Origin: a phage
Strand: one strand, 5' to 3'
Sequence record: PZ445427.1
Length of the DNA: 64,000 nucleotides
Shown here: piece by piece, positions 6,605 to 56,578 of the stretch
Layout: each line of letters begins with the position of its first letter
How positions within the stretch are numbered: position 1 is the first letter of the stretch
Program-made: the position numbers and the translations under genes
Notes under the pieces: model-generated
Seen by the model: the letters and a program-made list of their open reading frames with translations, nothing else
Told to the model about the DNA's origin: nothing
Database searches by the model: none

Positions 6605-6613
6605 TAAAAACAA

Positions 6614-6640
6614 GGAGATCTTCGGGTCTCCTTTTTCTTT
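6614..6640 (+). terminator. rho-independent terminator after nrdA
   Basis: ggagatc-ttcg-ggtctcc hairpin then T-run. Confidence 0.6.
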
Positions 6641-6650
6641 GAAATTTTAC

Positions 6651-6679
6651 TTGCTAATCGCTACCAGATTTGCTATAAT
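6651..6679 (+). promoter_or_regulatory. sigma70 promoter TTGCTA-17-TATAAT (nrdB)
   Basis: ttgcta 6651..6656, tataat 6674..6679. Confidence 0.6.
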
Positions 6680-6710
6680 ATTCCTGAAATAGTGAGAAAG
6701 AGGAAAATCA

Positions 6711-7856
6711 ATGACTACTTTACTAAACCTGAATTGGGATCATACTAACGCTGACCTTTTCCTGGGCGATTCTCTTGGTATCGCAGATTACGTTCGTGTA
6801 GCACATCCTGAACTTGAGCGTCTAGCACTTCTGCAACGTTCTCAATTTTGGACTGAAACTGAAATCAGTCTGGAAGCTGATAAGAAACAATGGCCAAACC
6901 TCCCGCGTGATATCCAGGAAATTACTCTCCTGAACTTAGCATGGCAAACTCAAACAGATTCTTTCATTAGTCGTGCTCCTGAGGCAGCTATTATGCCACT
7001 TGTAAGCCGTCCTGAATTGGAAGGTATGCTCAAGCAGTGGAGCTACTTCGAAGATCTACATAGCCGTGCGTATAGTAACATTATTCGTAACGTTCTGACT
7101 GACCCAGCAGAATTTATTGATTCTGTAACTAAAAACCAAGAAGCATTTGCACGTATCGCAGATTCTGTTGAACTGTTTGATGAATTGTATCTGTTAGGTC
7201 AGTATTTCCTTGCAGTACGTGATCATCAGGGTGATAATACTTATCCAGAAACTGAGTTCCCTGAAGTTAAACGTGAAACTCAGGCTAAGCTGTTAGATGC
7301 TTACTTTGCAATCTACGGTCTGGAAGCAATGCAGTTCTACGCATCTTTTGCATGTACCTTTGCTCTAGCAGAGAACGATATTCTGCAAGGTATTGCCAAG
7401 AACCTGCAACTAATTGCTAAAGATGAAGCTCTGCACACTCAAATGTCTAAAGCTATCATCCAGATTATGTTTCAGCAGTTTGATAAAGATCTGGTAGATG
7501 AAGCATTAGCTAAAGCACCAGCACAACTCCTAAAAACTCTGAAAACTGAGATTGAATGGGGTCACTTTATCTTTAAAGGCCGTAGTCTGATTGGTTTGAA
7601 CGCAGAACTGCTTGAAGAATATCTTTACTTTGTAGGACGTAACGCATTTATGCATATTGGTGTAGAATGGCCAAGCCACTTACCTGTAATTACTAAGAAC
7701 CCTATTCCGTGGATTATGAACTGGTTGGATACTACGTCTTTACAACCTGCTCCGCAAGAGATTCAGATTGGTGCGGCATACCGCGTAGGTCAGGTCACAG
7801 AAACCTCTGCTGATACTCTGAAAGATCTTGGCAACGAATTTGAGGGTATGTTCTAA
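6711..7856 (+). CDS. nrdB: ribonucleoside-diphosphate reductase small subunit
   Basis: 381 aa, ferritin-like diiron R2 fold, AGAGGAAA RBS. Confidence 0.9.
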   Translation: MTTLLNLNWDHTNADLFLGDSLGIADYVRVAHPELERLALLQRSQFWTETEISLEADKKQWPNLPRDIQEITLLNLAWQTQTDSFISRAPEAAIMPLVSRPELEGMLKQWSYFEDLHSRAYSNIIRNVLTDPAEFIDSVTKNQEAFARIADSVELFDELYLLGQYFLAVRDHQGDNTYPETEFPEVKRETQAKLLDAYFAIYGLEAMQFYASFACTFALAENDILQGIAKNLQLIAKDEALHTQMSKAIIQIMFQQFDKDLVDEALAKAPAQLLKTLKTEIEWGHFIFKGRSLIGLNAELLEEYLYFVGRNAFMHIGVEWPSHLPVITKNPIPWIMNWLDTTSLQPAPQEIQIGAAYRVGQVTETSADTLKDLGNEFEGMF

Positions 7857-8386
7857 TGATAGCAGCAATCTATGCAACTGGGCCGAATGGGGAGTTCGGC
7901 CTCAACGGTAAACTCCCTTGGGGTTCTTTCAAAGAAGAACTAGATATCTTCTACGCTACTTTGGATTCTCTAGCACCTGATAATATTATTGTAGGAGCAG
8001 GAACTTGGTTAGCCTTCCCTGAGACTCTGCAAAAAAGAATACTAGGAGATTCTGACCTATTTATTTATGCAAATAGACCACTACCTAACTCTGTAGGATC
8101 AGCCACACGCATAAGTAACATTGGATACAGTCTACCTGATTTCCTCAAGGAAGAAGTAACTGTAGTATTAGGGGGAGCAACTCTGCTTCTTGAAATGTAT
8201 GTCAAAAATCATCTAGATATGGCGTATATCTCTACTATTACTTCAGCTACACCATTATCTGCTGATGTACATCTGCATCATCACATTACTTTAACTAATT
8301 CAATGGCAACTAGAATGGACTATGTAGCAGGACAGAATGCAGATAAAACACTTTCTTTCTTACAAGAATTGGTGATATTTAAATGA
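7856..8386 (+). CDS. frd: dihydrofolate reductase-like protein
   Basis: N-terminal GLNGKLPWG and IVGAGTW / VLGGATLL motifs as in phage DHFRs; translationally coupled to nrdB and thymidylate synthase. Confidence 0.6.
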
Positions 8387-9237
8387 GGCAATATATTGAA
8401 ACTGGAAAACGTATTCTAGAAGAGGGTGTATGGGTAACGAATCCTAGAACAGGGGTTCGTTGCCTAACTATTATTGATGCAGACTTTACCTTTAACGTAG
8501 GAGCAGGAGAACTGCCGCTAGTAACTACTCGTAAAGCATTTGCTAAACAAGCAATAATGGAAATGATCGGATATCTCCGTGGGTACGACTCAGCAGCACA
8601 ATTCCGCGCTATTGGTGTTAATACATGGAATGCTAATGCAAATGAAAATATTGCCTGGCTAGGTAATCCATTCCGTAAAGGCGAGGATGATATGGGACGA
8701 GTCTATGGTGTTCAAGGACGTCATTGGACTAATTCTGATGGTATGGTATTTGATCAGTTAGCCAAAGTCTATCATAATTTGAAAAGAGGGATTGACGATC
8801 GTGGAGAAATTTTAACTTTTTGGAACCCTGGGGAATTTCGTAAAGGATGCCTACGTCCGTGTATGCATACCCATCAATTCTCTATTTTAGGTGATACACT
8901 ATACCTAAACTCTTTCCAGAGGTCTAATGATTTCTTGCTGGGCCAAGTATTTAATATGGTGCAATGTTATGCACTTCTAGCTATTATGGCACAGATTACA
9001 GGTCTTAAGCCAGGTATTGCTCGTCAAAAGATTATCAATCTTCATATCTATGAAGATCAGTATAATGTTCTGATGGAGCACAAGCAATTCGATCGTAAAC
9101 CTTTTGCATCTCCTACTTTAGAAATCAATCCAAATATCCAAACTTTGGATGATGTATTAACGTGGGTAAATAAGGATGATTTTACTGTTCGTGGCTATGA
9201 ACACCATCCTGCTATTGCATACCCATTCACAGTCTAA
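8383..9237 (+). CDS. thyA: thymidylate synthase
   Basis: 284 aa; catalytic RPCMHTHQF motif; ATGA overlap with upstream gene. Confidence 0.85.
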
Positions 9238-9242
9238 TTCAA

Positions 9243-9267
9243 ATAGCCCTTCGGGGCTATTATATTT
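9243..9267 (+). terminator. rho-independent terminator
   Basis: atagccc-ttcg-gggctat hairpin followed by TATATTT. Confidence 0.55.
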
Positions 9268-9276
9268 AAATTTCAT

Positions 9277-9305
9277 TTGCTTACTGAGTGAAATTCAAAT
9301 ATAAT
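9277..9305 (+). promoter_or_regulatory. T5-type early promoter
   Basis: ttgctt 9277..9282, 17 bp, tataat 9300..9305. Confidence 0.6.
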
Positions 9306-9329
9306 ATATTTTATAAATTGGAGACACTT

Positions 9330-9584
9330 ATGGGACTCTTTAAAAAGAAAGTTTATTTAACACAAAGTCAAGAACGCAGGTTCTTAGCTCTGTCTCAGTA
9401 TTACCATTTACCTTTCGATCATTTCATAGAACGGGCGTTAGAACAATTCCTAGAAAAGGAATTAAGGGCAATTAGACCTGAACCGCCAAGAGCACCAAAT
9501 GATGCACAGAGAGGTCATCCACGTATCCCACCTATGCCGCCAGTTCCACCAGCGACTAGGGTCATTATAGAAGGTGAAAAATAA
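9330..9584 (+). CDS. ribbon-helix-helix-like small DNA-binding protein with Pro-rich tail
   Basis: ATG 9330 after GGAGA; N-terminal KKVYLTQSQERRFLALSQYY resembles RHH beta-strand/helix; C-terminal PRIPPMPPVPP. Confidence 0.45.
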   Translation: MGLFKKKVYLTQSQERRFLALSQYYHLPFDHFIERALEQFLEKELRAIRPEPPRAPNDAQRGHPRIPPMPPVPPATRVIIEGEK

Positions 9585-9853
9585 TGTCTATTCTTTTATC
9601 TGCTTTAGAAGCAAAACAAAATACTATTGCTAGTATTAAAAAGGAAGTAATTGACTTAGAGTCACTTATTGCCGTAGAGATTGACAAAGCCATCAAAGAT
9701 AAAGAATTTAACTGTCACATCCAGGGATTGACTGAATATTCAGAAAATGCTAGAAATAGCGTCATGCAAAAACTTAGCAAACTAGGTTATGTTGTGGAAG
9801 CTAAGTATGAGCAACGTGAAGGTTTTTGGCTTGAAATTGATTGGAGCAAATAA
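9584..9853 (+). CDS. hypothetical protein (89 aa)
   Basis: ORF translationally coupled (TAATG) on both sides. Confidence 0.5.
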   Translation: MSILLSALEAKQNTIASIKKEVIDLESLIAVEIDKAIKDKEFNCHIQGLTEYSENARNSVMQKLSKLGYVVEAKYEQREGFWLEIDWSK

Positions 9854-10329
9854 TGTCGGTTTTCCACATATATACAGATGGTGCATGTAAGGGCAATCCT
9901 GGTTTAGGTGCGTGGGGATTCGTTGTCTATAATGATAATGATGATCGTATTGGCTCTAAATCTGGCTTCAGCCATAAAACTACTAATAACGAAATGGAAC
10001 TTACTGCAATTGTTGAAGTTCTTCGTTGGTCTACTAAGAAAGATAATCGTCCAGTAATTATCTACACTGATTCTGCTTACTGCAAAAATGGTATGGAAAG
10101 CTGGATGTGGTCTTGGCAGAAGAAAGGATGGAAGAAAGGAGATGGTGAAACTCCTCTTAATCTAGAACTCTGGCAAGAAGCGTTTAAACTAACTCAACAG
10201 TATATTAATTTCCATGATACTAACCCAACCTTTGTTAAGGTTAAAGGTCACTCAGGTATTCGTGGTAATGAAGAAGTTGATGCTCTATGCAATACTGTAA
10301 TTACTGAGCAAGAACTTGCTGAGATGTAA
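9853..10329 (+). CDS. rnhA: ribonuclease H
   Basis: HIYTDGACKGNPG and ELTA motifs of RNase HI; ATG 9853 overlaps upstream stop. Confidence 0.8.
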   Translation: MSVFHIYTDGACKGNPGLGAWGFVVYNDNDDRIGSKSGFSHKTTNNEMELTAIVEVLRWSTKKDNRPVIIYTDSAYCKNGMESWMWSWQKKGWKKGDGETPLNLELWQEAFKLTQQYINFHDTNPTFVKVKGHSGIRGNEEVDALCNTVITEQELAEM

Positions 10330-10349
10330 TAAATAATTTAAAAATTCAC

Positions 10350-10378
10350 TTGCTTAAAGCCCTCGAATTTAGTATAAT
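10350..10378 (+). promoter_or_regulatory. T5-type early promoter
   Basis: ttgctt 10350..10355, 17 bp, tataat 10373..10378. Confidence 0.6.
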
Positions 10379-10405
10379 ATTCGTATTGAAAGTGAGGAGG
10401 GCTTT

Positions 10406-10684
10406 ATGCGAATTTACAACTCAAATTCATTAGGATTTAAACCTTTGAGAAAACGCGCACAATCTCCGCGTCAGATCAGAAAGGCAAATATTGGTGAGCC
10501 AGAAACTAGGCTTCCACCACCTCCGGAGCAGCGTCTAGTTTATCTAGATGAAGAATTAGCCGAAAGGGAACGCAAAGCTCAAGAAGAAATTGAGCGCAAG
10601 AAACTGTGTACTGCTCCTGCATATAACAAGGGTGGTTATCAGTACGTTTCCAGTGAGGAACAAGCTAAGATGATCGGCAGATAA
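10406..10684 (+). CDS. hypothetical protein (92 aa)
   Basis: GAGGAGGG RBS. Confidence 0.55.
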   Translation: MRIYNSNSLGFKPLRKRAQSPRQIRKANIGEPETRLPPPPEQRLVYLDEELAERERKAQEEIERKKLCTAPAYNKGGYQYVSSEEQAKMIGR

Positions 10685-48281: not shown

Positions 48282-49171
48282 TGGGATTTTATAGTAATAG
48301 AAAGCCGAAAGGTGTAGTTGGTAAATTCGCGGTGGAAGAGAGACCTTTTCCACCGGTCGATGTAGAGAAACTACGTGAACTTCTCGAAATGTTAGAGGGC
48401 TGCCATGAACGTTGTTACTCTGAGCTTTCTTTAAACGAGAAACGTGTTGTTGAGATGTTCTGTATTCGGTCAGCTAGAACAGTTAGAGGTACTTCTCCAA
48501 AAGATGAAATAAAAGAATACAGAGTTCTAGTGATGCATGCTTGGGCACAACGTTTTGCAGTTCATTCACTTCAGGAATGGTTTAATCTTCCAGCATATAA
48601 AGACTTCCATGTTTATGAAGATGAAGTTATGAATTATAATGAGTTGTACGGTTTGTCATTTAAAAAGACAGGCTCACCAATGCATGATGCACTCAATTCA
48701 TTCCCTGATCATTATCTTCCAGTTCGTGAATACAGAGATCGTGAGGGAAATAAACCTTGCTTCACTATATGGAATAAGTCTAAGACAATATCTGATCTAG
48801 ACAATTATTGGTTCCGCACAAAAGAAGGATTCCTAGGAACAGAACCTTTACCTAAGGATCTCAAGCCTATCCTCCCACCTGTGAAACCTAAGCATGAAGT
48901 AACGATTGCTATTAATAGAATAATTCTAGGAGCAGATGATCTTACTAAACAAATCGCCGCAGTTATTGCAGTTCTGTTTGAAGGTACAAAATCTTCCCCA
49001 CGTTATGAAAAGCTAACTGATAACAAATTGCAGATACCTAACGAGTTGTACGAGAGTTCATGTAAGATCTATGATAACTTCAGTAAAGTAGATTACCCTG
49101 TGAGATCCATCAAAGAACTCATGGAGTATGCGGAGATGGGGATGAAAGGAAATCTCATGTTCGATGAATAA
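48281..49171 (+). CDS. hypothetical protein (296 aa)
   Basis: TAATG coupling; last gene before repeat region. Confidence 0.55.
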   Translation: MGFYSNRKPKGVVGKFAVEERPFPPVDVEKLRELLEMLEGCHERCYSELSLNEKRVVEMFCIRSARTVRGTSPKDEIKEYRVLVMHAWAQRFAVHSLQEWFNLPAYKDFHVYEDEVMNYNELYGLSFKKTGSPMHDALNSFPDHYLPVREYRDREGNKPCFTIWNKSKTISDLDNYWFRTKEGFLGTEPLPKDLKPILPPVKPKHEVTIAINRIILGADDLTKQIAAVIAVLFEGTKSSPRYEKLTDNKLQIPNELYESSCKIYDNFSKVDYPVRSIKELMEYAEMGMKGNLMFDE

Positions 49172-49178
49172 ACTCTAC

Positions 49179-49207
49179 TTGACGTTATGATTTCTGCATG
49201 TTATAAT
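49179..49207 (+). promoter_or_regulatory. strong sigma70 promoter TTGACG-17-TGtTATAAT pointing into ORF-free repeat region
   Basis: ttgacg 49179..49184, extended -10 tg at 49199..49200, tataat 49202..49207. Confidence 0.55.
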
Positions 49208-49213
49208 AACTCT

Positions 49214-49400
49214 ATGAAATAACATAGAATAAAGAGATCCACCCGGATACGGATGGTGGATGGGAAACTTCTATTTCCCCCGTAGCTTGTCGGAGGGCTA
49301 GGGAAATCTTCAGAAGTTTTGTACCATCTCACGCAATTCGTATCCCAGGGGTGGAGCATCTCTCACAATCCCTTGGGGATCTTATACTTATATAAAAACT
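49214..49400 (+). ncRNA. candidate structured non-coding RNA
   Basis: Promoter-proximal ORF-free GC-rich segment with multiple local hairpins (gggaaacttctatttccc; cccagggg ... cccttgggg). Confidence 0.3.
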
Positions 49401-49456
49401 AATACTGTTGAATAGATAAATTAACGTTCAAGATGATACACTTGTTGCCGCCGCTC

Positions 49457-49650
49457 TTCCTAGGATGGCACAACACTTTCTAGTAGACTCCTAAGTTTCT
49501 AGGAAAACTCACACCAACTCAGGCGGTTTTCATATTCCTAGAAACTCTAGCAATAGGCGGTTTAATACAGGGCGGTTATTTCTAGGAGACATTTTTCCAA
49601 AACACATTTCTGGAAATTGCTATCGGATTTGCACTCTGTGTTTCTAGAAA
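49457..49650. repeat. array of about 8 TTCTAG(G/A)A motifs with 3 interspersed (A/G)GGCGGTT motifs
   Basis: tcctagga 49459, ttctagta 49479, ttctagga 49498, tcctagaa 49536, ttctagga 49580, ttctggaa 49609, ttctagaa 49643; ggcggtt at 49522, 49556, 49571. Confidence 0.6.
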
Positions 49651-50222
49651 TTTATGGTCGGATTTGCACAATTGCCTAAGTTTTCATGAACACATACTCT
49701 CCTGAAAATAACAGCATTATTTCGGGCCGAAGGCCCATGATTGCCTGAGTTTTTAGAGCCACAGGAATTTTCACTTGTCAAGCTATTTTGCCCCATTTTG
49801 CTAATAAAATTTCGCATAATCTCGCCCCACGCCCAATTATCCCAAAACATCCCACATTATCCCCAAAAACGCAGCAAACTAGGCGTTGCACGCCCTTCCA
49901 GCTGCTACTTTCGTAGTTCCTCCCAAAATCTCATCGGATTCGCACTTCTCCCCAAACTCACACAATCACACACCCTCCAATCGAAGTCACAAAAATCTTG
50001 TCGGTTCTGCACACCTTAACACTTGTCGGATTTGCACATATTCTAGTAAATCCAGCTGGATTGCATCGCAGTTGCGGATTGCTGGAGTTTTTAGGAAAAT
50101 TCATTGTCGGATTCGCACACTGTAAAAATATTTCCCATCGGATTTGCACACTACCAAAAATTGTCGGATTCGCACATGCACGCTGGCACGTAATCCATGG
50201 TGGCAAATGTCGGATTTGCACA
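49622..50222. repeat. dispersed array of about 9 copies of GTCGGATT(T/C)GCACA
   Basis: Copies at about 49622, 49657, 49932, 50000, 50025, 50106, 50137, 50163, 50209 plus 2 degenerate copies near 50057..50085. Confidence 0.7.
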
Positions 50223-50257
50223 AAAGCGCAGGGCAAAATGAAAATGCCCTGCCTGCC

Positions 50258-50405
50258 GAAATGCGAATGATAATGAGATTGATTCGCATTTGAGAAGTTG
50301 AATGCGAATGATAATGATTCGCGTTTAGAAAGGGGAATGAGAATGGTTATCCTTTACAGAGTTGAATACGAATGAGTCGCATTTAGAAAGCGAAGTGAGA
50401 AACAC
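50258..50405. repeat. three tandem palindromic units AATGCGAAT-N-ATTCGCATT
   Basis: gaatgcgaatgataatga...gattcgcattt repeated at 50260, 50301, 50367. Confidence 0.6.
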
Positions 50406-50416
50406 TGTTATTTAAG

Positions 50417-50425
50417 TTATCCACA
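50417..50425 (+). promoter_or_regulatory. consensus DnaA box TTATCCACA
   Basis: Exact 9-mer; two 8/9 copies TTATCAACA at 50478 and 50490. Confidence 0.55.
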
Positions 50426-50506
50426 GGTTTATTAACAGCACGATTTGACTTGACAAAATCCTAGTGATTTTGAGGCGTTATCAACAGACTTATCAACAGG
50501 TTATTC

Positions 50507-50526
50507 TACTGTATATTTATACAGTA
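50507..50526. promoter_or_regulatory. LexA (SOS) box-like palindrome TACTGTATATTTATACAGTA
   Basis: 19/20 match to TACTGTATATATATACAGTA consensus (CTGT-N8-ACAG). Confidence 0.5.
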
Positions 50527-50555
50527 TTCCTGCGTAGTGAATAACTCTAATATAG

Positions 50556-50587
50556 CTCTAAAACGCTCTCAAACGCATTCTAACGCG
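50556..50587 (+). repeat. 31-bp direct repeat copy 1 (tctaaaacgctctcaaacgcattctaacgcg)
   Basis: Second copy at 54824..54854 with 3 mismatches. Confidence 0.6.
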
Positions 50588-50627
50588 TTTATTTTTGGAG
50601 GACGTATTTTAATAAGGGGAAATTTGA

Positions 50628-50668
50628 GGAAGGCCAGAAAAAGCGGGGCCGATAGTTGCGCCCCGTTA
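50628..50668 (-). terminator. rho-independent terminator (minus strand)
   Basis: cggggc ... gccccg hairpin; minus strand reads stem then CTTTTTCT. Confidence 0.5.
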
Positions 50669-50671
50669 TTA

Positions 50672-50866
50672 TTAGTCCGGTATTTGATGGGAGAACTCTA
50701 CGCTTTCACCGTAGGAATCTACTAGATTAGTGTAGTAACCATACTCATCATATATAAGTTTGTCATACTCTTGATTCTCACAAATTGCGCGGTTTTCTTT
50801 TGTATCTTCTACATAGAATGTATCCACGGTAACACTAGTTTTACGAATAACAATTTTATCACTCAT
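50672..50866 (-). CDS. hypothetical protein (64 aa)
   Basis: Track ORF, last gene of minus-strand operon inside IR-bracketed cassette. Confidence 0.5.
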   Translation of the reverse strand: MSDKIVIRKTSVTVDTFYVEDTKENRAICENQEYDKLIYDEYGYYTNLVDSYGESVEFSHQIPD

Positions 50867-50883
50867 AGTAACGCCCTCTTTTA

Positions 50884-51144
50884 TTAGTATTCTGTATTAG
50901 TTATAACTATAGCCGTATTTTCTAATTGTCCAGCACTTTCCGCTAAAAATGTAATATGTGCTGTATTGTTAATATAGATTGACTTATGCGCATTTCTTAA
51001 AGCATAAGCCCACCCACGGATCGCTGGCAAAATCTTGTCAAGCGATATATTTTGCGCTCTCAATTCCTTAGCGCGTACTGCCATTGCTTCATGTGCTTCA
51101 GTCAGTCCCTTAACTGTAAAAATACCGTTGCCGTGGTTGATCAT
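50884..51144 (-). CDS. hypothetical protein (86 aa)
   Basis: Track ORF, minus-strand operon. Confidence 0.5.
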   Translation of the reverse strand: MINHGNGIFTVKGLTEAHEAMAVRAKELRAQNISLDKILPAIRGWAYALRNAHKSIYINNTAHITFLAESAGQLENTAIVITNTEY

Positions 51145-51270
51145 AGTGCCATTGCTCCTAGAATGAGAATGATTATCAATATCATTGTAAAGCCATTACC
51201 AAATCGTAAACGCTGGGAATGTTTCCCAGCGGTATTATTAGATTTATGGCTTTGTGTTTTTCGCCACCAG

Positions 51271-51471
51271 CTATTCACGGTAAACGCTCCAACCGTCTAG
51301 CTTCCATTCCTCCCCCTTGCGAATATTGAAAAACCAATCATTAAAATTGTAACCATCTTCCGACATGATCACGCCGTTTTCTTTCATGTACAAAAACTCA
51401 TCGCTAGTAAAATATTGATTACTAACTTTGAAACCTTGTTTCATTTTTTCTAACGCTTCATCTTTAGTCAT
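51271..51471 (-). CDS. hypothetical protein (66 aa)
   Basis: Track ORF, 4-nt overlap with upstream gene. Confidence 0.5.
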   Translation of the reverse strand: MTKDEALEKMKQGFKVSNQYFTSDEFLYMKENGVIMSEDGYNFNDWFFNIRKGEEWKLDGWSVYRE

Positions 51472-51812
51472 TGTGCAATTTCCCGAAACGCTGTTTCAAT
51501 ACTTTCAGCGGTTGATTGAATATATGCGCCTTTCATAATCAGGCGCTCTGTACATACTTTGCGGAAAATGTCAATAAATTCATTTTCATTTTCTGCTACT
51601 AATGGCTCACCCATAACCTGTACATCACATGCGCCAAAAGTAAGAAACTGGAAGGCAAGCTCGCGAGCAACAACGGCATTAATCTTATAATGTGATTTGC
51701 CCTCATAGATATTAACCACGCCTTTATAAACTGGTGAAAGCTGATTTAAATAGCTTGCTAATAATGCCGGACGGCAATTAGTAACAAAACGATTACCCTC
51801 GTAAATAACCAT
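51468..51812 (-). CDS. hypothetical protein (114 aa)
   Basis: Track ORF, minus-strand operon. Confidence 0.55.
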   Translation of the reverse strand: MVIYEGNRFVTNCRPALLASYLNQLSPVYKGVVNIYEGKSHYKINAVVARELAFQFLTFGACDVQVMGEPLVAENENEFIDIFRKVCTERLIMKGAYIQSTAESIETAFREIAQ

Positions 51813-51921
51813 TTGTCAAGCTCCTAAAGCTGGGAAAATATCAGGTACATTTTTAAAACAAATGCAGCGAATGAGCAAACAACGCCAACGGTAGCAAACG
51901 CTAGAGCAATATATAAGGATC

Positions 51922-52134
51922 TCATAATACCCCACGAAAAGCAGCGTAAAAGGTGGCAAAGTGTTTAACCGTTTCGGCTACCAAATTTCCGCGCTTGTCA
52001 AATTTCTTTTCAGTAACACGGAAAGCGTTTTTGTTACGTGCTACATATTCGATTTTACAATCTGGACGCTCAAACGTGTTAACATCCACCAGCTTAAAAC
52101 CTTTAGAACGGGCAAGGGAAACATTCTTTAACAT
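51922..52134 (-). CDS. hypothetical protein (70 aa)
   Basis: Track ORF; preceded on minus strand by extended -10 TGTTATAAT (plus 52192..52200). Confidence 0.5.
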   Translation of the reverse strand: MLKNVSLARSKGFKLVDVNTFERPDCKIEYVARNKNAFRVTEKKFDKRGNLVAETVKHFATFYAAFRGVL

Positions 52135-52191
52135 TTGCTTAACTCCTAGAAATCAGGGAAAATTTTCAATCCACCGTTTCGGTGTAAAGGC

Positions 52192-52200
52192 ATTATAACA
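52192..52200 (-). promoter_or_regulatory. extended -10 promoter element TGTTATAAT (minus strand)
   Basis: plus-strand attataaca; no clear -35. Confidence 0.35.
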
Positions 52201-52228
52201 AAAAAGGCCGCCGATTAGGGCGACCTTT
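52200..52228 (-). terminator. rho-independent terminator (minus strand)
   Basis: Minus strand reads aggtcgccc-taat-cggcggcct then TTTTTTGT. Confidence 0.55.
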
Positions 52229-52241
52229 ACAAAACTTTACA

Positions 52242-52763
52242 TTACATATATCTGATTATTGCATCGCCGTATAGCTCGCTTTCAGATCGTAACACTTGCT
52301 CGAAACGCTGGTATTCTAGCGCCCTGTTTTCTTTTGGGAAATAGCAAGCGTTTTCTAGTGCCTTTTGATAAACATGCAATTCATTATCAAAACGCTGAAC
52401 GATCCCCAGTTCTAGCAAGGCTTTATATACTTCATCCTCACCATGACCACCATTAACAAATTGATAACTTTTCGTGAATTGCCAGCGGTACGCCGTTGCG
52501 CCCACGTCTGGATTTTCTACCATGTTGCAATCGTCACACTCGCAATCATTAGCAGACTCATCACAATTCTGACAGATTTCATGATTGCTAAAACTGGAGG
52601 CGTTTTCCATCGCCATTTCATGCAACGGCGTTTCAATATCGCCAGCGAAAAAATGTTCTACGCTTGCCCATTGTTCGCCGTGGGTATTAGTGTAACAGTA
52701 CACTAGTGCAATGATCGGATGATCAATATGTGATCCGGTTACTACGTCGCCATACTTTGACAT
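52242..52763 (-). CDS. hypothetical Cys-rich protein (173 aa)
   Basis: Track ORF; CQNCDESANDCECDDC cluster. Confidence 0.55.
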   Translation of the reverse strand: MSKYGDVVTGSHIDHPIIALVYCYTNTHGEQWASVEHFFAGDIETPLHEMAMENASSFSNHEICQNCDESANDCECDDCNMVENPDVGATAYRWQFTKSYQFVNGGHGEDEVYKALLELGIVQRFDNELHVYQKALENACYFPKENRALEYQRFEQVLRSESELYGDAIIRYM

Positions 52764-52777
52764 TAATTAGTCTCCTA

Positions 52778-53086
52778 TTAATTAGCAGGGAAATAAAGAG
52801 AATTTGCTACATCGTAAAATCCTTTATTCAAGAAAATTACGTCATCACGGACTATTTCATCCATTCCATAATCCAGCAAAGTTTCATCTACAAAAATACA
52901 TAGCCAGCCATAACCACGATCAAAGAAAGCATGATAATTATTCGCGCTTTCTACATGTTCCCATAAAAAGGGACGGCCTTGCTTTTCCCATATAGGAATA
53001 TTGCTTTGATCGTCTGAATAATTAACGTGTGGGCTATTCGGCATCTTTTCGGCTAATTGCGTCAACATGATTTGATTCAGTTGCAT
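52778..53086 (-). CDS. hypothetical protein (102 aa)
   Basis: Track ORF. Confidence 0.5.
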   Translation of the reverse strand: MQLNQIMLTQLAEKMPNSPHVNYSDDQSNIPIWEKQGRPFLWEHVESANNYHAFFDRGYGWLCIFVDETLLDYGMDEIVRDDVIFLNKGFYDVANSLYFPAN

Positions 53087-53118
53087 AATAAGTAGTCTCC
53101 TAACAATTAACAGGGAAA

Positions 53119-53145
53119 TAGTAAAGCGGGGAAATAATCCCCGCT
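53119..53145 (-). terminator. hairpin terminator (minus strand)
   Basis: agcgggga-aataa-tccccgct; same stem recurs at 56588. Confidence 0.45.
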
Positions 53146-53153
53146 AGTTATTA

Positions 53154-54149
53154 TTATTCTGTTTCGGTGTTTTGGGTAAAGGTAGAAATGTCAATACCTT
53201 TTACCATTTCATCGATCATTTCAGCAATATTGAAACTTTGTACCATTTCCAACATTGCCGCTTCCATTGCCGCGCCTGCTACCGCTTTAGCTTTCGCATT
53301 AGTCGGGGCGTACTGGTCAACCGCTACACTCAGCAGGTTAGCGATCACTACACGACCAATCGGCGTATCAATATACCCTTTAATCATAAACGGCGCTTTT
53401 TTCGCCGCTACTTTTGTGATTTGAGTCAGTGCAATTTTACCCGCTTCCAGTTTAGCAGCGTTAACAACGGCGGATTTATTAGCGGCAACGATAGAAGATA
53501 CTTTAGACATAATATTTCCTTTATTTTCAGTAGTTTGCGCATTTGCGCTTGAAGTTTGAGAGTTTACAGCCTGTTTTGTTACGTTGTCAAGCGGTAAAAG
53601 TGTAAATCCAGCGTTTGCAACGTTTGATTCATTCCCATACTCTAAATAATCGTTAGGGATCAACATGTTACCGCTAGCGCGTTCAAAACACAATACGCCA
53701 GTTGTTTCGATTGCGTCACTATCAGCACGTTTAATGGCGCTTGTCAATTCGCCCCAAATACTAGATAGTAAATCTTCTACATCGCTGGAATTAATACCAT
53801 TTACGCGAGTAGCGAAAACCATTTCCTTTTCTTGTACATTGTAACCACGGGCAATATAGCTTTTTTCGTCGTGACCTACAATGATAAAATCAATATCGCT
53901 TCCCCGCTGATTTCGCATGATGTGATAGTCACGGTTGTAAAGCACTAGAACGCGGGTAGGGTCTAGTAGTTGTGTGAAATCACTTAAACAATAATGAGTA
54001 TCATTATTATCTAAAATATCATCGTGAATCTTTTCAACCATTGCCGCCGTATGTTGTAGGCTTGCTGGACTTGATCCGTCTAGCAGGTTGCGCAAACTAC
54101 CCTTAATAATAGTGGCGTTTGCTGGTACTGCAATTCTTACAGTAGACAT
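53154..54149 (-). CDS. hypothetical protein (331 aa)
   Basis: GGGAGACAAAGA RBS; first gene of cassette. Confidence 0.6.
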   Translation of the reverse strand: MSTVRIAVPANATIIKGSLRNLLDGSSPASLQHTAAMVEKIHDDILDNNDTHYCLSDFTQLLDPTRVLVLYNRDYHIMRNQRGSDIDFIIVGHDEKSYIARGYNVQEKEMVFATRVNGINSSDVEDLLSSIWGELTSAIKRADSDAIETTGVLCFERASGNMLIPNDYLEYGNESNVANAGFTLLPLDNVTKQAVNSQTSSANAQTTENKGNIMSKVSSIVAANKSAVVNAAKLEAGKIALTQITKVAAKKAPFMIKGYIDTPIGRVVIANLLSVAVDQYAPTNAKAKAVAGAAMEAAMLEMVQSFNIAEMIDEMVKGIDISTFTQNTETE

Positions 54150-54396
54150 TTCTTTGTCTCCCTCGTTAATCGGTGAGTGAATGATATAGATAATTGTTCG
54201 CTAGGGGCAAGAAAAAAGAAAAGGTTTTTTATTTCTTGCTTACTGCCTGTTTTTATGATAACCGCGCGTTTTCTATTTCTAGCTCTCTGTAAGCGTACAC
54301 AAGGCTTTATTATAGTAAGGGGTAATGCTGAAAAACCGCTTAGAACGCGTTTTAGGCCGCTTAAATTTGATTGCGGTTGTTACTGCTACCATTCTA

Positions 54397-54416
54397 CCCT
54401 GTATATTTATACAGTA
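54397..54416. promoter_or_regulatory. LexA (SOS) box-like palindrome (core CTGTATATTTATACAG identical to 50509..50524)
   Basis: ccctgtatatttatacagtagg. Confidence 0.5.
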
Positions 54417-54436
54417 GGATAACCTGTACATAAGTC

Positions 54437-54445
54437 TGTGGATAA
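54437..54445 (-). promoter_or_regulatory. consensus DnaA box (TGTGGATAA)
   Basis: Exact reverse complement of TTATCCACA. Confidence 0.55.
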
Positions 54446-54485
54446 GTCGCCAAAACGTCGCCTATTACGTCAAGTTATTTTGTGC

Positions 54486-54494
54486 TGTGGATAA
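54486..54494 (-). promoter_or_regulatory. consensus DnaA box (TGTGGATAA)
   Basis: Exact reverse complement of TTATCCACA; 8/9 copy at 54770. Confidence 0.55.
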
Positions 54495-54823
54495 CTTTGT
54501 GAATAACCTAAATGATAGTGGTTCTCACTTAGCCGATAGTTTCTTATAGTTATTATTTCTCTTTAATTTATAAATATATTATATAATATGAAATAGTTAG
54601 TTGGCTAATAGGTTTTTAGAGTATTAATAGTCTGCTAACTGTTTCGGCTGTTACAATCCACCAGCGTGATTATCATCCTAGCGATTGTTAGTCTACTAAT
54701 GCTCTGATGCACGTCCAGACTTATTTGTCAATGAAAAATAACAGCAGAAAATACTTTTTTGAAAAATCAAGTGGATAACTCATTAAATTTCATTTTTGCT
54801 TTTTGTATAAGTTATTAACAGGG

Positions 54824-54854
54824 TCTAAAACGCTCTGTAACGCATTCTAAGCGC
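54824..54854 (+). repeat. 31-bp direct repeat copy 2
   Basis: tctaaaacgctctgtaacgcattctaagcgc. Confidence 0.6.
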
Positions 54855-54921
54855 CTCAAAGGAAAAGATAGGCAATCATAAGGGGTACACCGAGAAAACC
54901 TCACCACGAGGATTTTAGATT

Positions 54922-54949
54922 TTGTCAAGTAGGGCAAAGCAAATATAAA
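54922..54949 (+). promoter_or_regulatory. candidate sigma70 promoter TTGTCA-16-TATAAA
   Basis: ttgtca 54922..54927, tataaa 54944..54949. Confidence 0.35.
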
Positions 54950-55180
54950 TGAAAAAATTACTTGCTAAAATGGTTGTTTTGGTGTTATTCGCGCGCCTGT
55001 TTCATTAAATTTAGTGCGCCGCTGGACGTTTGCGGGTAGTGGTTTTCTTTACGTTTCTTTACAAAAATACGCTTGCGCCATTTTCGGGAATAACCTATTA
55101 TTTATCTCGTAGGACGGCAAGACGGAAACGAAAGGCCAGACTACAACGGCGGGGAAGTTTACCGCCATGCTCTTTAAAAA

Positions 55181-55206
55181 CTAGGGAACATCTTAAAGCC
55201 TATCGG
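55181..55206. repeat. 26-bp inverted repeat, left copy (partner 55468..55495)
   Basis: ctagggaacatcttaaagcctatcgg vs reverse complement of ccgataggttttaagatgttccccgtag; flanked by 12-bp direct repeat gctctttaaaaa at 55169 and 55501. Confidence 0.6.
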
Positions 55207-55240
55207 CGGTAAACTTATACATTATAAGGAATCGACGATA

Positions 55241-55459
55241 ATGATCAAATCAAAAAACGCTTTAGTGATTAGTGCAAAACCTGCTAGCCCACTGGATAGC
55301 AGAACAAAAAATTTGTTGACAGTAGCGCAACGATCTGTAAAATACAGATTCAAGCAATACAAGAAAGGCAAGCAACAAGGGCTGGAAATGGTGTGGCGTA
55401 ATATAATGATTGATTTATATAACTCACATCAAATCGAAAAAAGTTTAAAAAACGCTTGA
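55241..55459 (+). CDS. hypothetical basic protein (72 aa) bracketed by inverted repeats
   Basis: Track ORF; lies exactly between the 26-bp IR copies. Confidence 0.45.
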   Translation: MIKSKNALVISAKPASPLDSRTKNLLTVAQRSVKYRFKQYKKGKQQGLEMVWRNIMIDLYNSHQIEKSLKNA

Positions 55460-55484
55460 CACGCTAGCCGATAGGTTTTAAGAT
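55456..55484 (+). promoter_or_regulatory. candidate sigma70 promoter TTGACA-17-TAAGAT
   Basis: ttgaca 55456..55461 overlapping right IR copy. Confidence 0.4.
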
Positions 55485-55495
55485 GTTCCCCGTAG
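55468..55495. repeat. 26-bp inverted repeat, right copy
   Basis: See 55181..55206. Confidence 0.6.
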
Positions 55496-55623
55496 TAACT
55501 GCTCTTTAAAAATTTGGATAACGGTAATGTTTAGGCTAACTCCTAGCGGATTATAATCTAATAGCGTTTCAAAGTATCGAGGCGCTATTGTGGAATAATC
55601 CCCAATAAACCGGAGTATTAAAA

Positions 55624-55875
55624 ATGCAAAACGTTATTACCGCGCCGAAAGTAGGTCAATCTGTATTCATTCCTTTTGTAACTAAAACGGATGAATTAAC
55701 CGGAAAAGCCGAACGTATTAAAGGTGCGGCGCTTGATCCCTTTGATAAGATTGAAGCGGTCTATGCGGAAACGGAACGCAGTAACCACGGCAAGCCTATT
55801 TATAACGTCCGTGTTAAATCTGGCGACGTTGTAAAAATCATTCAGAAAGATGATAAATGGCAAGCTATCGCATAA
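55624..55875 (+). CDS. hypothetical protein (83 aa)
   Basis: GGAGTATTAAAAATG initiation region (motif shared by several genes in this block). Confidence 0.55.
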   Translation: MQNVITAPKVGQSVFIPFVTKTDELTGKAERIKGAALDPFDKIEAVYAETERSNHGKPIYNVRVKSGDVVKIIQKDDKWQAIA

Positions 55876-56161
55876 ATTAATGCGCCTTACATATCATGCT
55901 TAGTTAGGCAATAAAGATAACTCGAAATATTCCTAGCGTGAACGGAATAATAAACAGCGTATAAATACAATGTTGCCTTATTAATTCTCTGGCAAGCCGG
56001 ATAAGGTGAGAATATAAATATATTCGGGAATTAATAAACCGCTTGAAACTGGAAATAAAAATAAAATGTTTCCGTTATATATTCTAGCTAATAGAATATA
56101 TAGCGATTAACATTTAGTTAATCATAATCCCTTAATTAATAATTGAATGGAGTATTAAATT

Positions 56162-56578
56162 ATGTCTAACGTTAAAACCGAAAAAACCGCAAAATTCTCT
56201 TGGAACGAAGAAAACACCGAAAAGGCTGTTTCTATGTATTCTGAAATGGTCGCTAAAAGCGGAATTGAATTTGCTAACAGTGACGGCCTGAAAGAAATTG
56301 CCGCCGCCGTTGGCGCTGCAAGCCCTGTTTCTGTACGTTCTAAACTGACAAGCGCAAAAGCGTACCAGAAAAGTGATAAACCGCGTAAAGTTGGCGGCGG
56401 GTCTAGTGTCCGTAAAGCTCACTATGTGCGCGTTATGGCTAAACATGCCATTGATGCTGGCGTTATCAAAGACGCTGATGATCTGGCAAGTCTGGAAAGT
56501 GCAAAACTGGAAACGCTGGAAGCCGTAGCGCAATTGTTAGGCGTAGCGGAGGAAGTAAAACAGGCCGCAGGTGAATAA
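56162..56578 (+). CDS. hypothetical protein (138 aa), possible A2-like pre-early DNA-binding protein
   Basis: GGAGTATTAAATTATG; position immediately upstream of the A1-like gene; identity is positional inference only. Confidence 0.35.
   Translation: MSNVKTEKTAKFSWNEENTEKAVSMYSEMVAKSGIEFANSDGLKEIAAAVGAASPVSVRSKLTSAKAYQKSDKPRKVGGGSSVRKAHYVRVMAKHAIDAGVIKDADDLASLESAKLETLEAVAQLLGVAEEVKQAAGE

What the first reader, a model, noticed from the sequence alone, without database searches (positions are those of the whole stretch)
50405..54860. Eight-gene cassette of unknown proteins bracketed by DnaA-box/LexA-box inverted repeats and a 31-bp direct repeat
About 120-bp imperfect inverted repeats (50405..50530 and 54395..54520) flank eight minus-strand ORFs (54149 down to 50672) in at least two transcription units, all without recognisable domains. 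Each arm carries consensus DnaA boxes (TTATCCACA at 50417, 54437, 54486) and the same 16-bp core CTGTATATTTATACAG, a 19/20 match to the E. coli LexA SOS box at 50507..50526. A 31-bp direct repeat lies just outside each arm (50556 and 54824). Codon style by eye is richer in GCG/CGC than the early region. In T5-like phages this position corresponds to the first DNA to enter the cell, so these genes are candidates for host-takeover or anti-defence functions, and the flanking sites suggest host DnaA/LexA binding, an origin-like element, or a recombination/inversion module.
Basis: partly seen in the sequence, partly recalled or inferred. Interest (0 to 1): 0.8.

Follow-up and report, generated by a model that had tools for sequence, protein, structure and literature searches.

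The report
Known T5 repeats hiding LexA operators
This is the already described pair of inverted DnaA-box repeats that brackets the accessory early-injected genes of T5-like phages, but its conserved inner palindrome is a near-perfect site for the host SOS repressor LexA, an apparently unreported detail that gives a cheap test of how these phages pause DNA injection.

Summary
The window is a T5-like Epseptimavirus, and the region lies in the terminal repeat (first-step-transfer DNA), reversed relative to the T5 map. The two arms (50390-50524 and 54399-54533; 135 nt, 75%) are T5's IRD'-spacer-IRC' (Repeat Region 3, the inner edge of the injection-stop region) and IRC-spacer-IRD (Repeat Region 2). 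Each arm carries two pairs of DnaA or DnaA-like boxes 3 bp apart, as published for 25 T5-like phages. The genes between them are the variable right-hand pre-early operon. They are not all unknown: one is a T5.015-type Ung-dependent nickase, one is DUF7566 (homologous to toxic T5 gene 011), and one has a Tad2-like anti-Thoeris fold.

The LexA box seems to be new. The palindrome (T5 "palindrome D") scores as well as or better than natural E. coli SOS boxes. It is expected 0.01 times per window. It is kept next to DnaA boxes in Escherichia, Salmonella, Klebsiella, Pectobacterium, Proteus and Vibrio phages, where the spacer drifts and CTGT/CTGG half-sites persist. No accessible paper mentions LexA here. 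Binding and function are untested. The origin and invertible-switch readings are weak, although the gene block was inverted at least once in evolution.

The parts
50390..50526 (.). Left arm, homolog of T5 IRD'-spacer-IRC' (Repeat Region 3, inner edge of the injection-stop region). DnaA box TTATCCACA 50417-50425 + 3 bp + DnaA-like TTATTAACA 50429-50437; 40-nt gap; TTATCAACA 50478-50486 + 3 bp + TTATCAACA 50490-50498; then the LexA-like 20-mer at 50507-50526.
   Evidence: I1; gapless alignment to T5 9332-9462. S114 annotates the equivalent of window ~49831-50618 as 'similar to DNA injection stop signal'.
50507..50526 (.). LexA-operator-like palindrome TACTGTATATTTATACAGTA (T5 'palindrome D'), at the gene-proximal end of the left arm.
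   Evidence: 19/20 to consensus, 0.01 expected. PWM score 25.5 bits, above all 25 E. coli training boxes. Only 4e-6 of all 20-bp palindromes score this high. Conserved across genera.
54397..54533 (.). Right arm, homolog of T5 IRC-spacer-IRD (Repeat Region 2). LexA-like CCCTGTATATTTATACAGTA 54397-54416; DnaA-like TGTACATAA 54425-54433 + 3 bp + TGTGGATAA 54437-54445; 40-nt gap; TGTGGATAA 54486-54494 + 3 bp + TGTGAATAA 54498-54506; conserved end AGTGGTTCTCACTT 54517-54530.
   Evidence: PWM score 22.3 bits.
50557..50583 (+). 'B motif' (TCTAAAACGCTCTCAAACGCATTCTAA), an array of CGTTnTAG-like units on the gene side of the left arm. It is part of the extended inverted repeat.
   Evidence: (D8, I24).
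54337..54362 (-). Inverted copy of the B motif (T5 IRB'), on the gene side of the right arm. This is the true mirror partner of 50557-50583.
   Evidence: (I4, I24).
54824..54850 (+). Third copy of the B motif (T5 IRB, Repeat Region 1), 290 bp outside the right arm.
   Evidence: (D8).
53154..54149 (-). P1, 331 aa, DUF7566. Homolog of T5 ORF011+012 (T5 gene 011: toxic, alters the nucleoid). Function unknown.
   Evidence: Pfam PF24450, E 6e-136. tblastn to T5 6417-7423. Toxicity from bioRxiv 10.64898/2026.04.02.716235. AF2 pLDDT 69; no meaningful fold match.
52778..53086 (-). P2, 102 aa, phrog_16959, unknown function. Accessory: present in only some relatives.
52242..52763 (-). P3, 173 aa, Cys-rich, phrog_6741, unknown function. 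Followed by a strong terminator at 52228-52203.
51922..52134 (-). P4, 70 aa, homolog of T5.015 (nickase acting at abasic sites made by host Ung). First gene of the second transcription unit; an extended -10 TGTTATAAT lies at 52200-52192.
   Evidence: phrog_4227, E 2.5e-50. 93% identity to T5 8007-8216. Function. Promoter read directly.
51824..51925 (-). P5, 33-aa hydrophobic ORF, conserved in a few relatives.
51468..51812 (-). P6, 114 aa, homolog of T5 ORF016, phrog_4379, unknown function. Nearly universal in close relatives.
51271..51471 (-). P7, 66 aa, compact Tad2-like fold (candidate Thoeris anti-defence sponge). Accessory.
   Evidence: Pfam Tad2-like E 0.005, below threshold. Best PDB sequence hit is SPO1 Tad2, E 0.02. 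AF2 pLDDT 97.4. The top four Foldseek hits are all Tad2, prob up to 0.96, TM about 0.6.
51141..51278 (-). 45-aa ORF (GTG start), conserved at 82-100% in several relatives.
50884..51144 (-). P8, 86 aa, no family. Found in only one other fetched locus.
50672..50866 (-). P9, 64 aa, phrog_6973. Has T5 (8875-9066) and My1 homologs. Followed by a GC hairpin and T-run terminator at about 50666-50636, the T5 palindrome C equivalent.
   Evidence: Terminator read directly.
54181..54210 (-). Candidate promoter of the P1 operon (TTGCCC-18-TATCAT), in the position of T5's promoter upstream of gene 011.
   Evidence: (T5P4).

Best explanation
The locus is the right-hand pre-early (first-step-transfer) accessory operon of a T5-like phage. 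It is bracketed by the family-wide elements IRC-spacer-IRD and IRD'-spacer-IRC'; the latter forms the inner edge of the injection-stop region.

Each arm is a composite landing pad for host DNA-binding proteins. A near-consensus LexA operator sits at the gene-proximal end, in fixed register with two pairs of DnaA boxes. The arms lie outside the operon's promoter and terminator, so they act as DNA, not RNA.

Most likely mechanism (inferred, not shown). [quoted passage not shown] The resulting nucleoprotein complexes hold or insulate the end of the injected DNA during the pause, for example by blocking RNA polymerase that reads from the very strong pre-early promoters towards DNA still in the channel. 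Phage A1/A2 later relieve the block.

The genes between the arms are exchangeable host-takeover and anti-defence cargo: a T5.015-type nickase, a DUF7566 protein homologous to toxic T5 gene 011, and a Tad2-like protein.

Confidence by layer: identity of the element about 0.95; DnaA and LexA really bind about 0.6; role in the injection pause or insulation about 0.3.
For: Identity. The best hits are Epseptimavirus phages. Synteny runs from early genes through the injection-stop region, the cassette, divergent promoters, A2, A1 and dmp. The arms align without gaps to T5's annotated IRC/IRD/IRD'/IRC'. The pattern of box pairs 3 bp apart with a constant spacer matches Davison 2020.

LexA. There are 2 sites against 0.01 expected. 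PWM scores are 25.5 and 22.3 bits, against 12.8-24.0 for E. coli boxes and 12.9 for the next best site in the window. Fewer than 6e-5 of all palindromes look this LexA-like. In an anchor search that did not condition on the palindrome, every T5-like arm carried it. It is retained beside TTATCCACA boxes in Klebsiella, Pectobacterium, Proteus and two Vibrio lineages. In these the spacer changes (ATATCCAT, ATATAATT, AAAGGTTT) and the recurring half-site change is CTGT to CTGG or ACAG to CCAG, which natural SOS boxes tolerate. It is the most conserved block of the arm in the distant set.

The palindrome is always at the inner end, with the boxes outward. The gene content and length of the inter-arm block vary while the arms stay conserved.
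Against: No binding data exist for DnaA or LexA on this DNA; a 2023 paper says the repeats have not been tested experimentally.

The LexA sites are not at known promoters: the right one is about 190 bp upstream of the P1 promoter and the left one is downstream of the terminator.

From general knowledge, T5 grows on recA strains, so LexA cleavage cannot be essential.

The site is not inviolable. S114's left copy reads ATAG. Four phages have TTGT in the Repeat Region 2 arm. Proteus-type phages keep only one full arm.

My LexA matrix was built from boxes recalled from memory.

Cytoplasmic proteins binding incoming DNA would be expected to favour entry rather than stop it.
Confidence: 0.6

Rival explanations
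1. The palindrome is recognised by a phage protein rather than LexA. The dimeric DNA-binding protein A2, alone or with A1, would bind or cut it to release the injection block or to join the terminal repeats (Davison's restriction-site idea for PalD). The resemblance to an SOS box would then be mimicry or coincidence.
For: A2 is a DNA-binding dimer essential for second-step transfer, and Davison lists PalD among candidate cleavage palindromes. The palindrome and A2 co-occur in all lineages examined.
Against: A2 diverges to about 40-43% identity in Vibrio and Proteus phages, yet the half-sites stay CTGT/CTGG. Those are the LexA specificity shared by all these gammaproteobacterial hosts (general knowledge). 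Fewer than 6e-5 of all palindromes would resemble the LexA consensus this closely by accident. A2 matches no Pfam family that would predict a specificity.
Confidence: 0.2
2. The arms matter mainly as recombination substrates. They would be conserved homology blocks that let co-infecting T5-like phages swap the accessory cassette and occasionally invert it. This does not exclude protein binding.
For: The distance between the palindromes ranges from about 1.7 to 4.1 kb, with mosaic gene content between conserved arms. Davison reports the same contrast. Homologs of P1 and P9 lie in reversed order and orientation between the arms in My1, and the P1 homolog is reversed in Klebsiella GZ8.
Against: All 37 close relatives have one orientation. 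No recombinase domain occurs in or near the cassette. In My1 three genes next to the Repeat Region 3 arm are not inverted, so the inversion end-points need not be the arms. Recombination alone does not explain why specific host-protein motifs are the best-conserved columns, or why they persist where the long repeat has decayed.
Confidence: 0.25
3. The DnaA-box clusters form a DnaA-dependent replication origin or origin-like unwinding element in the terminal repeat.
For: Each arm has four DnaA-type boxes, arranged in a way reminiscent of oriC. A very AT-rich 60-70 bp block (about 54550-54620) abuts the right arm.
Against: Electron microscopy maps the T5 origins near the middle of the genome, and the replication genes are not expressed during first-step transfer (Davison 2020). 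No 13-mer-type unwinding repeats were identified. The left arm has no AT-rich neighbour.
Confidence: 0.05
4. The motifs are chance features of an AT-rich repeat and have no function.
For: The loose DnaA consensus is not enriched in the window as a whole. CTGT-N8-ACAG alone is expected about once per 64 kb (my estimate from base composition).
Against: The full LexA consensus is expected 0.01 times but is seen twice, both in the arms. TTATCCACA occurs 4 times against 0.64 expected, three of them in the arms. The motifs are conserved across six host genera while the flanks diverge.
Confidence: 0.02

Closest known systems
Bacteriophage T5 Repeat Regions 2 and 3: IRC-spacer-IRD (6022-6152) and IRD'-spacer-IRC' (9332-9462) with palindrome D (Heusterspreute 1987; Wang 2005 annotation AY587007; Davison 2015 and 2020)
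   Same: Same genomic position, same order of elements, gapless alignment, the same paired DnaA and DnaA-like boxes 3 bp apart, the same 40-nt gap between pairs, and an identical 16-bp palindrome core. Both bracket the variable rightward pre-early ORFs.
   Different: Nothing structural; the arms are about 78% identical per column to T5's. The cassette content differs: P2, P3, P5, P7 and P8 have no T5 homolog, and there is no HNH insertion between Repeat Regions 1 and 2. The literature treats palindrome D as a plain palindrome or a possible restriction site, not as a LexA operator.
E. coli SOS boxes (LexA operators, consensus TACTGTATATATATACAGTA; for example dinD, umuDC, sulA)
   Same: CTGT-N8-ACAG with an AT-rich spacer and TA flanks. 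The score is at or above natural operators. Variants seen among phages (CTGG/CCAG, spacer changes) match what natural boxes tolerate.
   Different: The sites do not overlap a demonstrated promoter. They occur as a mirrored pair about 3.9 kb apart, each fused in fixed register to DnaA boxes, in a strictly virulent phage. Binding is untested.
Chromosomal DnaA-box clusters (oriC, datA, DARS)
   Same: Several consensus and near-consensus 9-mers in closely spaced, same-orientation pairs.
   Different: No evidence of initiation or DnaA titration here. The published hypothesis is membrane anchoring of the injected DNA. There is no demonstrated unwinding element.
Invertible DNA segments (Hin/Gin/Cin, fimS)
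   Same: Inverted repeats flank a gene block, and both orientations of the block exist among Demerecviridae lineages.
   Different: No recombinase is present. The arms are long and only 75% identical. One orientation is fixed in 37 close relatives.
Tad2 (SPO1 Gp34.65), the Thoeris anti-defence sponge, compared with P7 only
   Same: The best sequence and fold matches are all Tad2.
   Different: P7 is 66 aa against about 90 aa. All sequence scores are below family thresholds. A deeper family profile loses the PDB hit. Ligand-binding residues were not examined.

Membership tests
T5-type first-step-transfer inverted repeats (IRC-spacer-IRD / IRD'-spacer-IRC') | Located in the terminal repeat of a T5-like phage. 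One arm lies beside the divergent pre-early promoter region and the other at the inner edge of the injection-stop repeats. | tested here: met
   Synteny with S114, BD13 and T5 annotations. DRD-type and DRC-type repeats lie immediately outside the left arm.
T5-type first-step-transfer inverted repeats (IRC-spacer-IRD / IRD'-spacer-IRC') | About 131-bp arms in inverted orientation that align with the T5 arms. | tested here: met
   135 nt, 75% complementary. Gapless alignment to T5 6022-6152 and 9332-9462.
T5-type first-step-transfer inverted repeats (IRC-spacer-IRD / IRD'-spacer-IRC') | Eight DnaA or DnaA-like boxes, in pairs separated by 3 bp, with a constant spacer between pairs. | tested here: met
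   Four boxes per arm, with 3-bp gaps inside each pair and 40 nt between pairs in both arms, as in T5.
T5-type first-step-transfer inverted repeats (IRC-spacer-IRD / IRD'-spacer-IRC') | Causes or contributes to the injection stop. | not testable with these tools
   This is only a hypothesis in the literature.
LexA operator (SOS box) | CTGT-N8-ACAG palindrome with an AT-rich spacer, scoring within the range of known operators. | tested here: met
   The matrix was built from boxes recalled from memory, so absolute scores are approximate.
LexA operator (SOS box) | Half-sites are conserved and the spacer is free to vary among related sequences in hosts that share the LexA motif. | tested here: met
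   Exceptions: the S114 left arm, and four Repeat Region 2 arms with TTGT.
LexA operator (SOS box) | Overlaps or closely follows the promoter of a regulated gene. | tested here: inconclusive
   The sites are not at the annotated or predicted operon promoters. A weak outward-facing promoter-like element exists (TTGAGA-17-TAGAGT, 50572-50544, ending 17 nt before the 20-mer). Its -10-like hexamer recurs across genera but its -35 is not conserved.
LexA operator (SOS box) | Bound by LexA in vitro or in vivo and derepressed on SOS induction. | not testable with these tools
   No data found.
DnaA-dependent replication origin | A DnaA-box cluster next to an AT-rich unwinding element, with initiation mapped there. 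| tested here: inconclusive
   Boxes are present, and there is an AT-rich block beside the right arm only. Published mapping places the T5 origins mid-genome.
Site-specific invertible switch | A recombinase is encoded in or beside the segment. | tested here: not met
   No recombinase family appears among the cassette or neighbouring proteins.
Site-specific invertible switch | Both orientations are found among close relatives or within a population. | tested here: not met
   37 close relatives all have the same orientation. Opposite orientation is seen only between subfamilies.
T5.015 Ung-dependent AP-site nickase (P4) | Full-length sequence homology to T5.015. | tested here: met
   phrog_4227, E 2.5e-50, 70/70 positions. 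93% identity to T5 8007-8216.
Tad2 / DUF2829 (P7) | Passes the Pfam gathering threshold for PF11195. | tested here: not met
   17.8 bits against a cutoff of 25. 15 of 60 family members give weak hits.
Tad2 / DUF2829 (P7) | Tad2 fold. | tested here: met
   AF2 pLDDT 97.4. The top four PDB hits are all Tad2, prob 0.66-0.96, TMq 0.58-0.61. All other listed hits have prob 0.21 or lower.
Tad2 / DUF2829 (P7) | Binds gcADPR or His-ADPR and blocks Thoeris. | not testable with these tools
   The ligand pocket was not analysed.

The most novel reading that the evidence does not exclude
The host SOS repressor LexA, together with DnaA, is a previously unrecognised host factor of the T5 family's two-step DNA delivery or pre-early programme. 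High-affinity LexA operators fused to DnaA boxes at both ends of the accessory pre-early operon would be occupied on entry. They would help to hold or insulate the first-step-transfer DNA, or gate an outward-reading promoter. [quoted passage not shown]
Probability: 0.25. Interest if true: 0.75.

Novelty: already known. Interest (0 to 1): 0.45.

Why it matters
How T5 stops after injecting 8% of its DNA, and how it restarts, has been open since the 1960s. The only current molecular proposal, DnaA boxes binding membrane-bound DnaA, is untested.

If the most conserved element of the stop-region repeats is a textbook LexA operator, there is a second concrete host candidate. It can be tested with standard reagents: purified LexA, lexA(Def) and lexA(Ind-) hosts, and existing T5 genome-editing tools.

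The result would also be an unusual case of a strictly virulent phage carrying conserved SOS operators. The cassette itself is ordinary accessory cargo of this family. The Tad2-like gene suggests that some Epseptimaviruses deliver an anti-Thoeris sponge with the very first DNA to enter the cell.

Tried and rejected
Transposon or mobile-cassette reading. The '31-bp direct repeat' is not a target-site duplication. The copies are not symmetric around the arms, they match T5's IRB/IRB' plus a third copy, and no transposase is present.

RNA-level function. The arms lie outside the promoter and terminator of the operon, and no Rfam family matches 49000-56200.

Other regulators for the palindrome. 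I compared CRP, TyrR, the Fur box and the XerCD dif site by eye. The spacings and half-sites do not fit.

Outward LexA-controlled promoter. Only a 9/12 match exists, the -35 is not conserved, and the Repeat Region 2 arm has a different inner flank. I kept this as a speculation only.

Firmer Tad2 membership for P7. Profiles A1 and A4 did not improve the PDB match.

Metagenomic contigs that matched the DnaA-pair anchor without the palindrome share no proteins with the window, so they are irrelevant.

Davison 2015 and Heusterspreute 1987 could not be read. 'LexA unreported' therefore rests on Davison 2020 and full-text searches only.

Full report
**What the sequence is.** The region 50200-55000 matches 531 phage records. 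The best match is Salmonella phage vB_SenS-AKM_HA2021_32 at 96.6% identity over 96% of the query. All the good matches are Epseptimavirus or other T5-like Demerecviridae.

Annotated relatives give the gene order in window orientation (S114, BD13). It runs: early genes (T5p029 to T5p018), the 'DNA injection stop signal', minus-strand genes similar to T5p014 and T5p010, divergent pre-early promoters (P-H22, P-D/E20), then T5p008, T5p007, A2, A1 and dmp.

The finding therefore lies in the terminal repeat, that is the first-step-transfer (FST) DNA, reversed relative to the T5 map. By the BD13 alignment the terminal-repeat boundary is at about window 49755.

**Checking the observation.** The inverted repeat is real: 50390-50524 against 54399-54533, 135 nt, 75% complementary.
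- TTATCCACA occurs 4 times in the window against 0.64 expected, and three of the four copies are in the arms.
- The loose consensus TTWTNCACA is not enriched overall (9 vs 8.05). The signal is the arrangement. Each arm has two pairs of 9-mers, 3 bp apart within a pair and 40 nt between pairs (read).
- The LexA consensus with up to 3 mismatches is found twice against 0.01 expected, at 50507-50526 (1 mismatch) and 54397-54416 (3 mismatches).
- The '31-bp direct repeat' is 27 nt at 93% (D8), but its geometry was misread. The 50557-50583 copy is on the gene side of the left arm. Its mirror partner is the inverted copy at 54337-54362. The 54824-54850 copy lies 290 bp beyond the right arm. These copies correspond to T5's IRB' and IRB plus a third copy that the T5 record does not annotate.
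- Alignment of both arms with T5, and ungapped comparison of 71 distinct arms, show that inverted similarity continues about 90 nt further inward.
- The ORFs, the two or more transcription units and the modest GCG/CGC excess are confirmed.

**This architecture is published.** The T5 record AY587007 annotates inverted repeats C and D (6022-6060, 6112-6152), D' and C' (9332-9372, 9424-9462), 'palindrome D' (9330-9349) and IRB/IRB'. The window's arms align to them without gaps.

Davison's 2020 preprint compares 25 T5-like phages, including EPS7. It describes:
- the same 131-bp IRC-spacer-IRD and IRD'-spacer-IRC' elements;
- eight DnaA or DnaA-like boxes in pairs 3 bp apart, with a constant spacer;
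- high conservation of these untranslated repeats, in contrast to the highly variable ORFs between them.

It proposes that membrane-bound DnaA holds the injected DNA. A 2023 BF23 paper states that experimental tests of these sites are lacking.

**The genes.** Nine or ten minus-strand ORFs lie between the arms.
- P1 (331 aa) is DUF7566 and homologous to T5 ORF011/012. T5 gene 011 is dispensable, toxic, alters the nucleoid and 'resists functional predictions'. My own model and fold searches also found nothing, and no methyltransferase fold despite a propagated UniRef label.
- P4 (70 aa) is a T5.015-type nickase that acts at abasic sites made by host Ung.
- P6 and P9 have T5 homologs.
- P2, P3, P5, P7, P8 and a 45-aa ORF are accessory and patchily distributed among 37 related loci.
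- P7 (66 aa) has a confident model (pLDDT 97.4) whose four best PDB matches are all Tad2 anti-Thoeris sponges. Sub-threshold sequence hits agree with this.

'All without recognisable domains' is therefore wrong, but 'host-takeover or anti-defence cargo' is reasonable.

**The LexA box.** T5's palindrome D is TACTGTATAAATATACAGTA. Its 16-bp core is the exact reverse complement of the window's, and it is also 19/20 to the consensus.

I built a weight matrix from 25 E. coli SOS boxes. These were recalled from memory, so the scores are approximate.
- The two window sites score 25.5 and 22.3 bits.
- The training boxes score 12.8-24.0 bits.
- The next best site in the 64 kb scores 12.9 bits.
- Only 3e-5 of all possible 20-bp palindromes reach 22.3 bits, and 4e-6 reach 25.5 bits. 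A phage that merely needed 'some palindrome' would almost never land here.

Conservation is the stronger argument. CTGT-N8-ACAG, or a one-step variant, sits at the gene-proximal end of the arms in every T5-like locus examined, with the DnaA boxes always pointing outward. A search anchored only on the adjacent DnaA pair recovered the palindrome in every T5-like arm.

In distant genera the half-sites persist while the spacer drifts. Each site lies within 10-25 nt of TTATCCACA boxes, even where the long inverted repeat has decayed.
- Vibrio D441: TACTGTATATCCATACAGCG and CACTGTATATCCATACAGGG.
- Proteus: TACTGTATATAATTACAGGG.
- Vibrio Luma: TACTGTAAAGGTTTACAGTA.
- Pectobacterium My1: TACTGTGTATTTATACAGTA and TACTGTATATTTATCCAGTA.
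- Klebsiella GZ8: TACTGGTTATTTATACAGTA.

The recurrent half-site change is T to G (CTGG/CCAG), which natural SOS boxes also show. Exceptions exist: S114's left copy reads ATAG, and four phages have TTGT in the Repeat Region 2 arm.

Davison 2020 contains no mention of LexA or SOS and treats PalD as a possible restriction site. Full-text searches linking LexA with T5 or T5-like phages returned nothing relevant. I could not read the 1987 and 2015 papers.

**How it most likely works.** Shown:
- The arms are DNA elements outside the operon's promoter and terminator.
- They are conserved independently of each other; each arm type keeps its own inner flank across phages.
- What the two arms share is precisely the LexA-like site, the box pairs, a TGTCAAG core in the spacer and an AGTGKTTCTCAC end.

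Inferred: host LexA and DnaA occupy both arms soon after entry. The resulting complexes would act in holding or insulating the end of the FST DNA during the pause. One possibility is that they stop RNA polymerase coming from the strong pre-early promoters before it reaches DNA still in the channel. A1/A2 would later relieve the block.

Against an essential LexA-cleavage step: T5 grows on recA hosts (general knowledge), and the sites are not at known promoters. A weak outward promoter-like element precedes the left palindrome, but it is not convincingly conserved.

**Rival explanations.**
- Phage A2 or A1/A2 as the binder is possible. It fits poorly with invariant LexA-type half-sites across A2 proteins that share only about 40% identity.
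- A recombination role has some support. The distance between the palindromes varies from 1.7 to 4.1 kb with mosaic content. Homologs of P1 and P9 are reversed in order and orientation in My1, and the P1 homolog is reversed in Klebsiella GZ8. However, there is no recombinase, close relatives are uniform, and the inversion end-points need not be the arms.
- An origin is unlikely given published mid-genome origin mapping.
- Chance is excluded by the conservation.

**Verdict.** The locus is an ordinary member of a described architecture, so I label it 'already known'. The residual interest lies in the apparently unreported, statistically and phylogenetically robust LexA-operator identity of palindrome D. 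This gives a directly testable handle on an old problem. A smaller point of interest is the Tad2-like gene carried in the first-injected DNA.

Noticed in passing
window 51271-51471 (minus strand): P7 is a 66-aa protein with a very confident AF2 model. Its four best PDB matches are all Tad2 anti-Thoeris sponges, and sequence hits to Tad2/PF11195 are sub-threshold. The family has 580 representatives. The gene is present in only a few T5-like cassettes.
   Followed up: partly
window 49623-50221; also 42870 and 48015: Eight same-orientation copies of TCGGATTYGCAC (T5 'DRD') span the terminal-repeat boundary, with 10 hits against 0.41 expected. The repeat is conserved in Klebsiella, Pectobacterium and Vibrio T5-like phages. 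ATTTGCACA within it is 8/9 to the DnaA-box consensus. An isolated copy at 42870 lies 178 bp from a lone TTATCCACA at 43048 in the unique region.
   Followed up: partly
window 50236-50401: Five tandem 29-35-nt units (GAATGAGAATGATTCGCATTTAGAAAG-like, each containing a short palindrome) lie immediately outside the left arm. They are equivalent to T5 DRC / palindromes E-J of the injection-stop region.
   Followed up: no
window 50557-50583, 54337-54362, 54824-54850: The 'B motif' is an array of roughly 10-nt CGTTnTAG-like units and looks like a protein-binding array. It is conserved from enterobacterial to Pectobacterium and Klebsiella phages. The binder is unknown.
   Followed up: partly
L045 (My1) 8260-10487; L041 (Klebsiella GZ8) 7612-8550: Homologs of P1 and P9 lie between the arms in reversed orientation, and in My1 also in reversed order, relative to T5 and this window. 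The block was therefore inverted at least once in Demerecviridae evolution. Davison had described these ORFs simply as replaced and read in the opposite direction.
   Followed up: partly
window 55184-55207 / 55467-55490, and 55316-55343, 55456-55484: A 24-nt, 96% inverted repeat (T5 IRA/IRA') surrounds two near-consensus sigma-70 promoters facing A2/A1 (TTGACA-16-TAAAAT and TTGACA-17-TAAGAT). These are probably the P-H22 and P-D/E20 equivalents.
   Followed up: no
window 53154-54149 (P1) and its homologs: UniRef names many DUF7566 homologs 'DNA N-6-adenine methyltransferase'. No Pfam methyltransferase domain or methyltransferase fold supports this, so it is probably a propagated misannotation.
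   Followed up: yes
window 54550-54620: An extremely AT-rich block (about 90% A+T) directly abuts the outer end of the right arm. The left arm has no counterpart. Its role (UP element, bending or unwinding) is unknown.
   Followed up: no
One is 33 aa and hydrophobic; the other is 45 aa with a GTG start. The cassette has about 10 genes.
   Followed up: partly
L042 (Vibrio D441) 11532; L043 (Proteus) 10688: Extra high-scoring LexA-like boxes lie outside the arms in distant phages. Each is followed within 4-12 nt by a -35-like TTGACA or TTGGCA upstream of the A2-side genes, which hints at promoter-linked LexA sites in those lineages.
   Followed up: no
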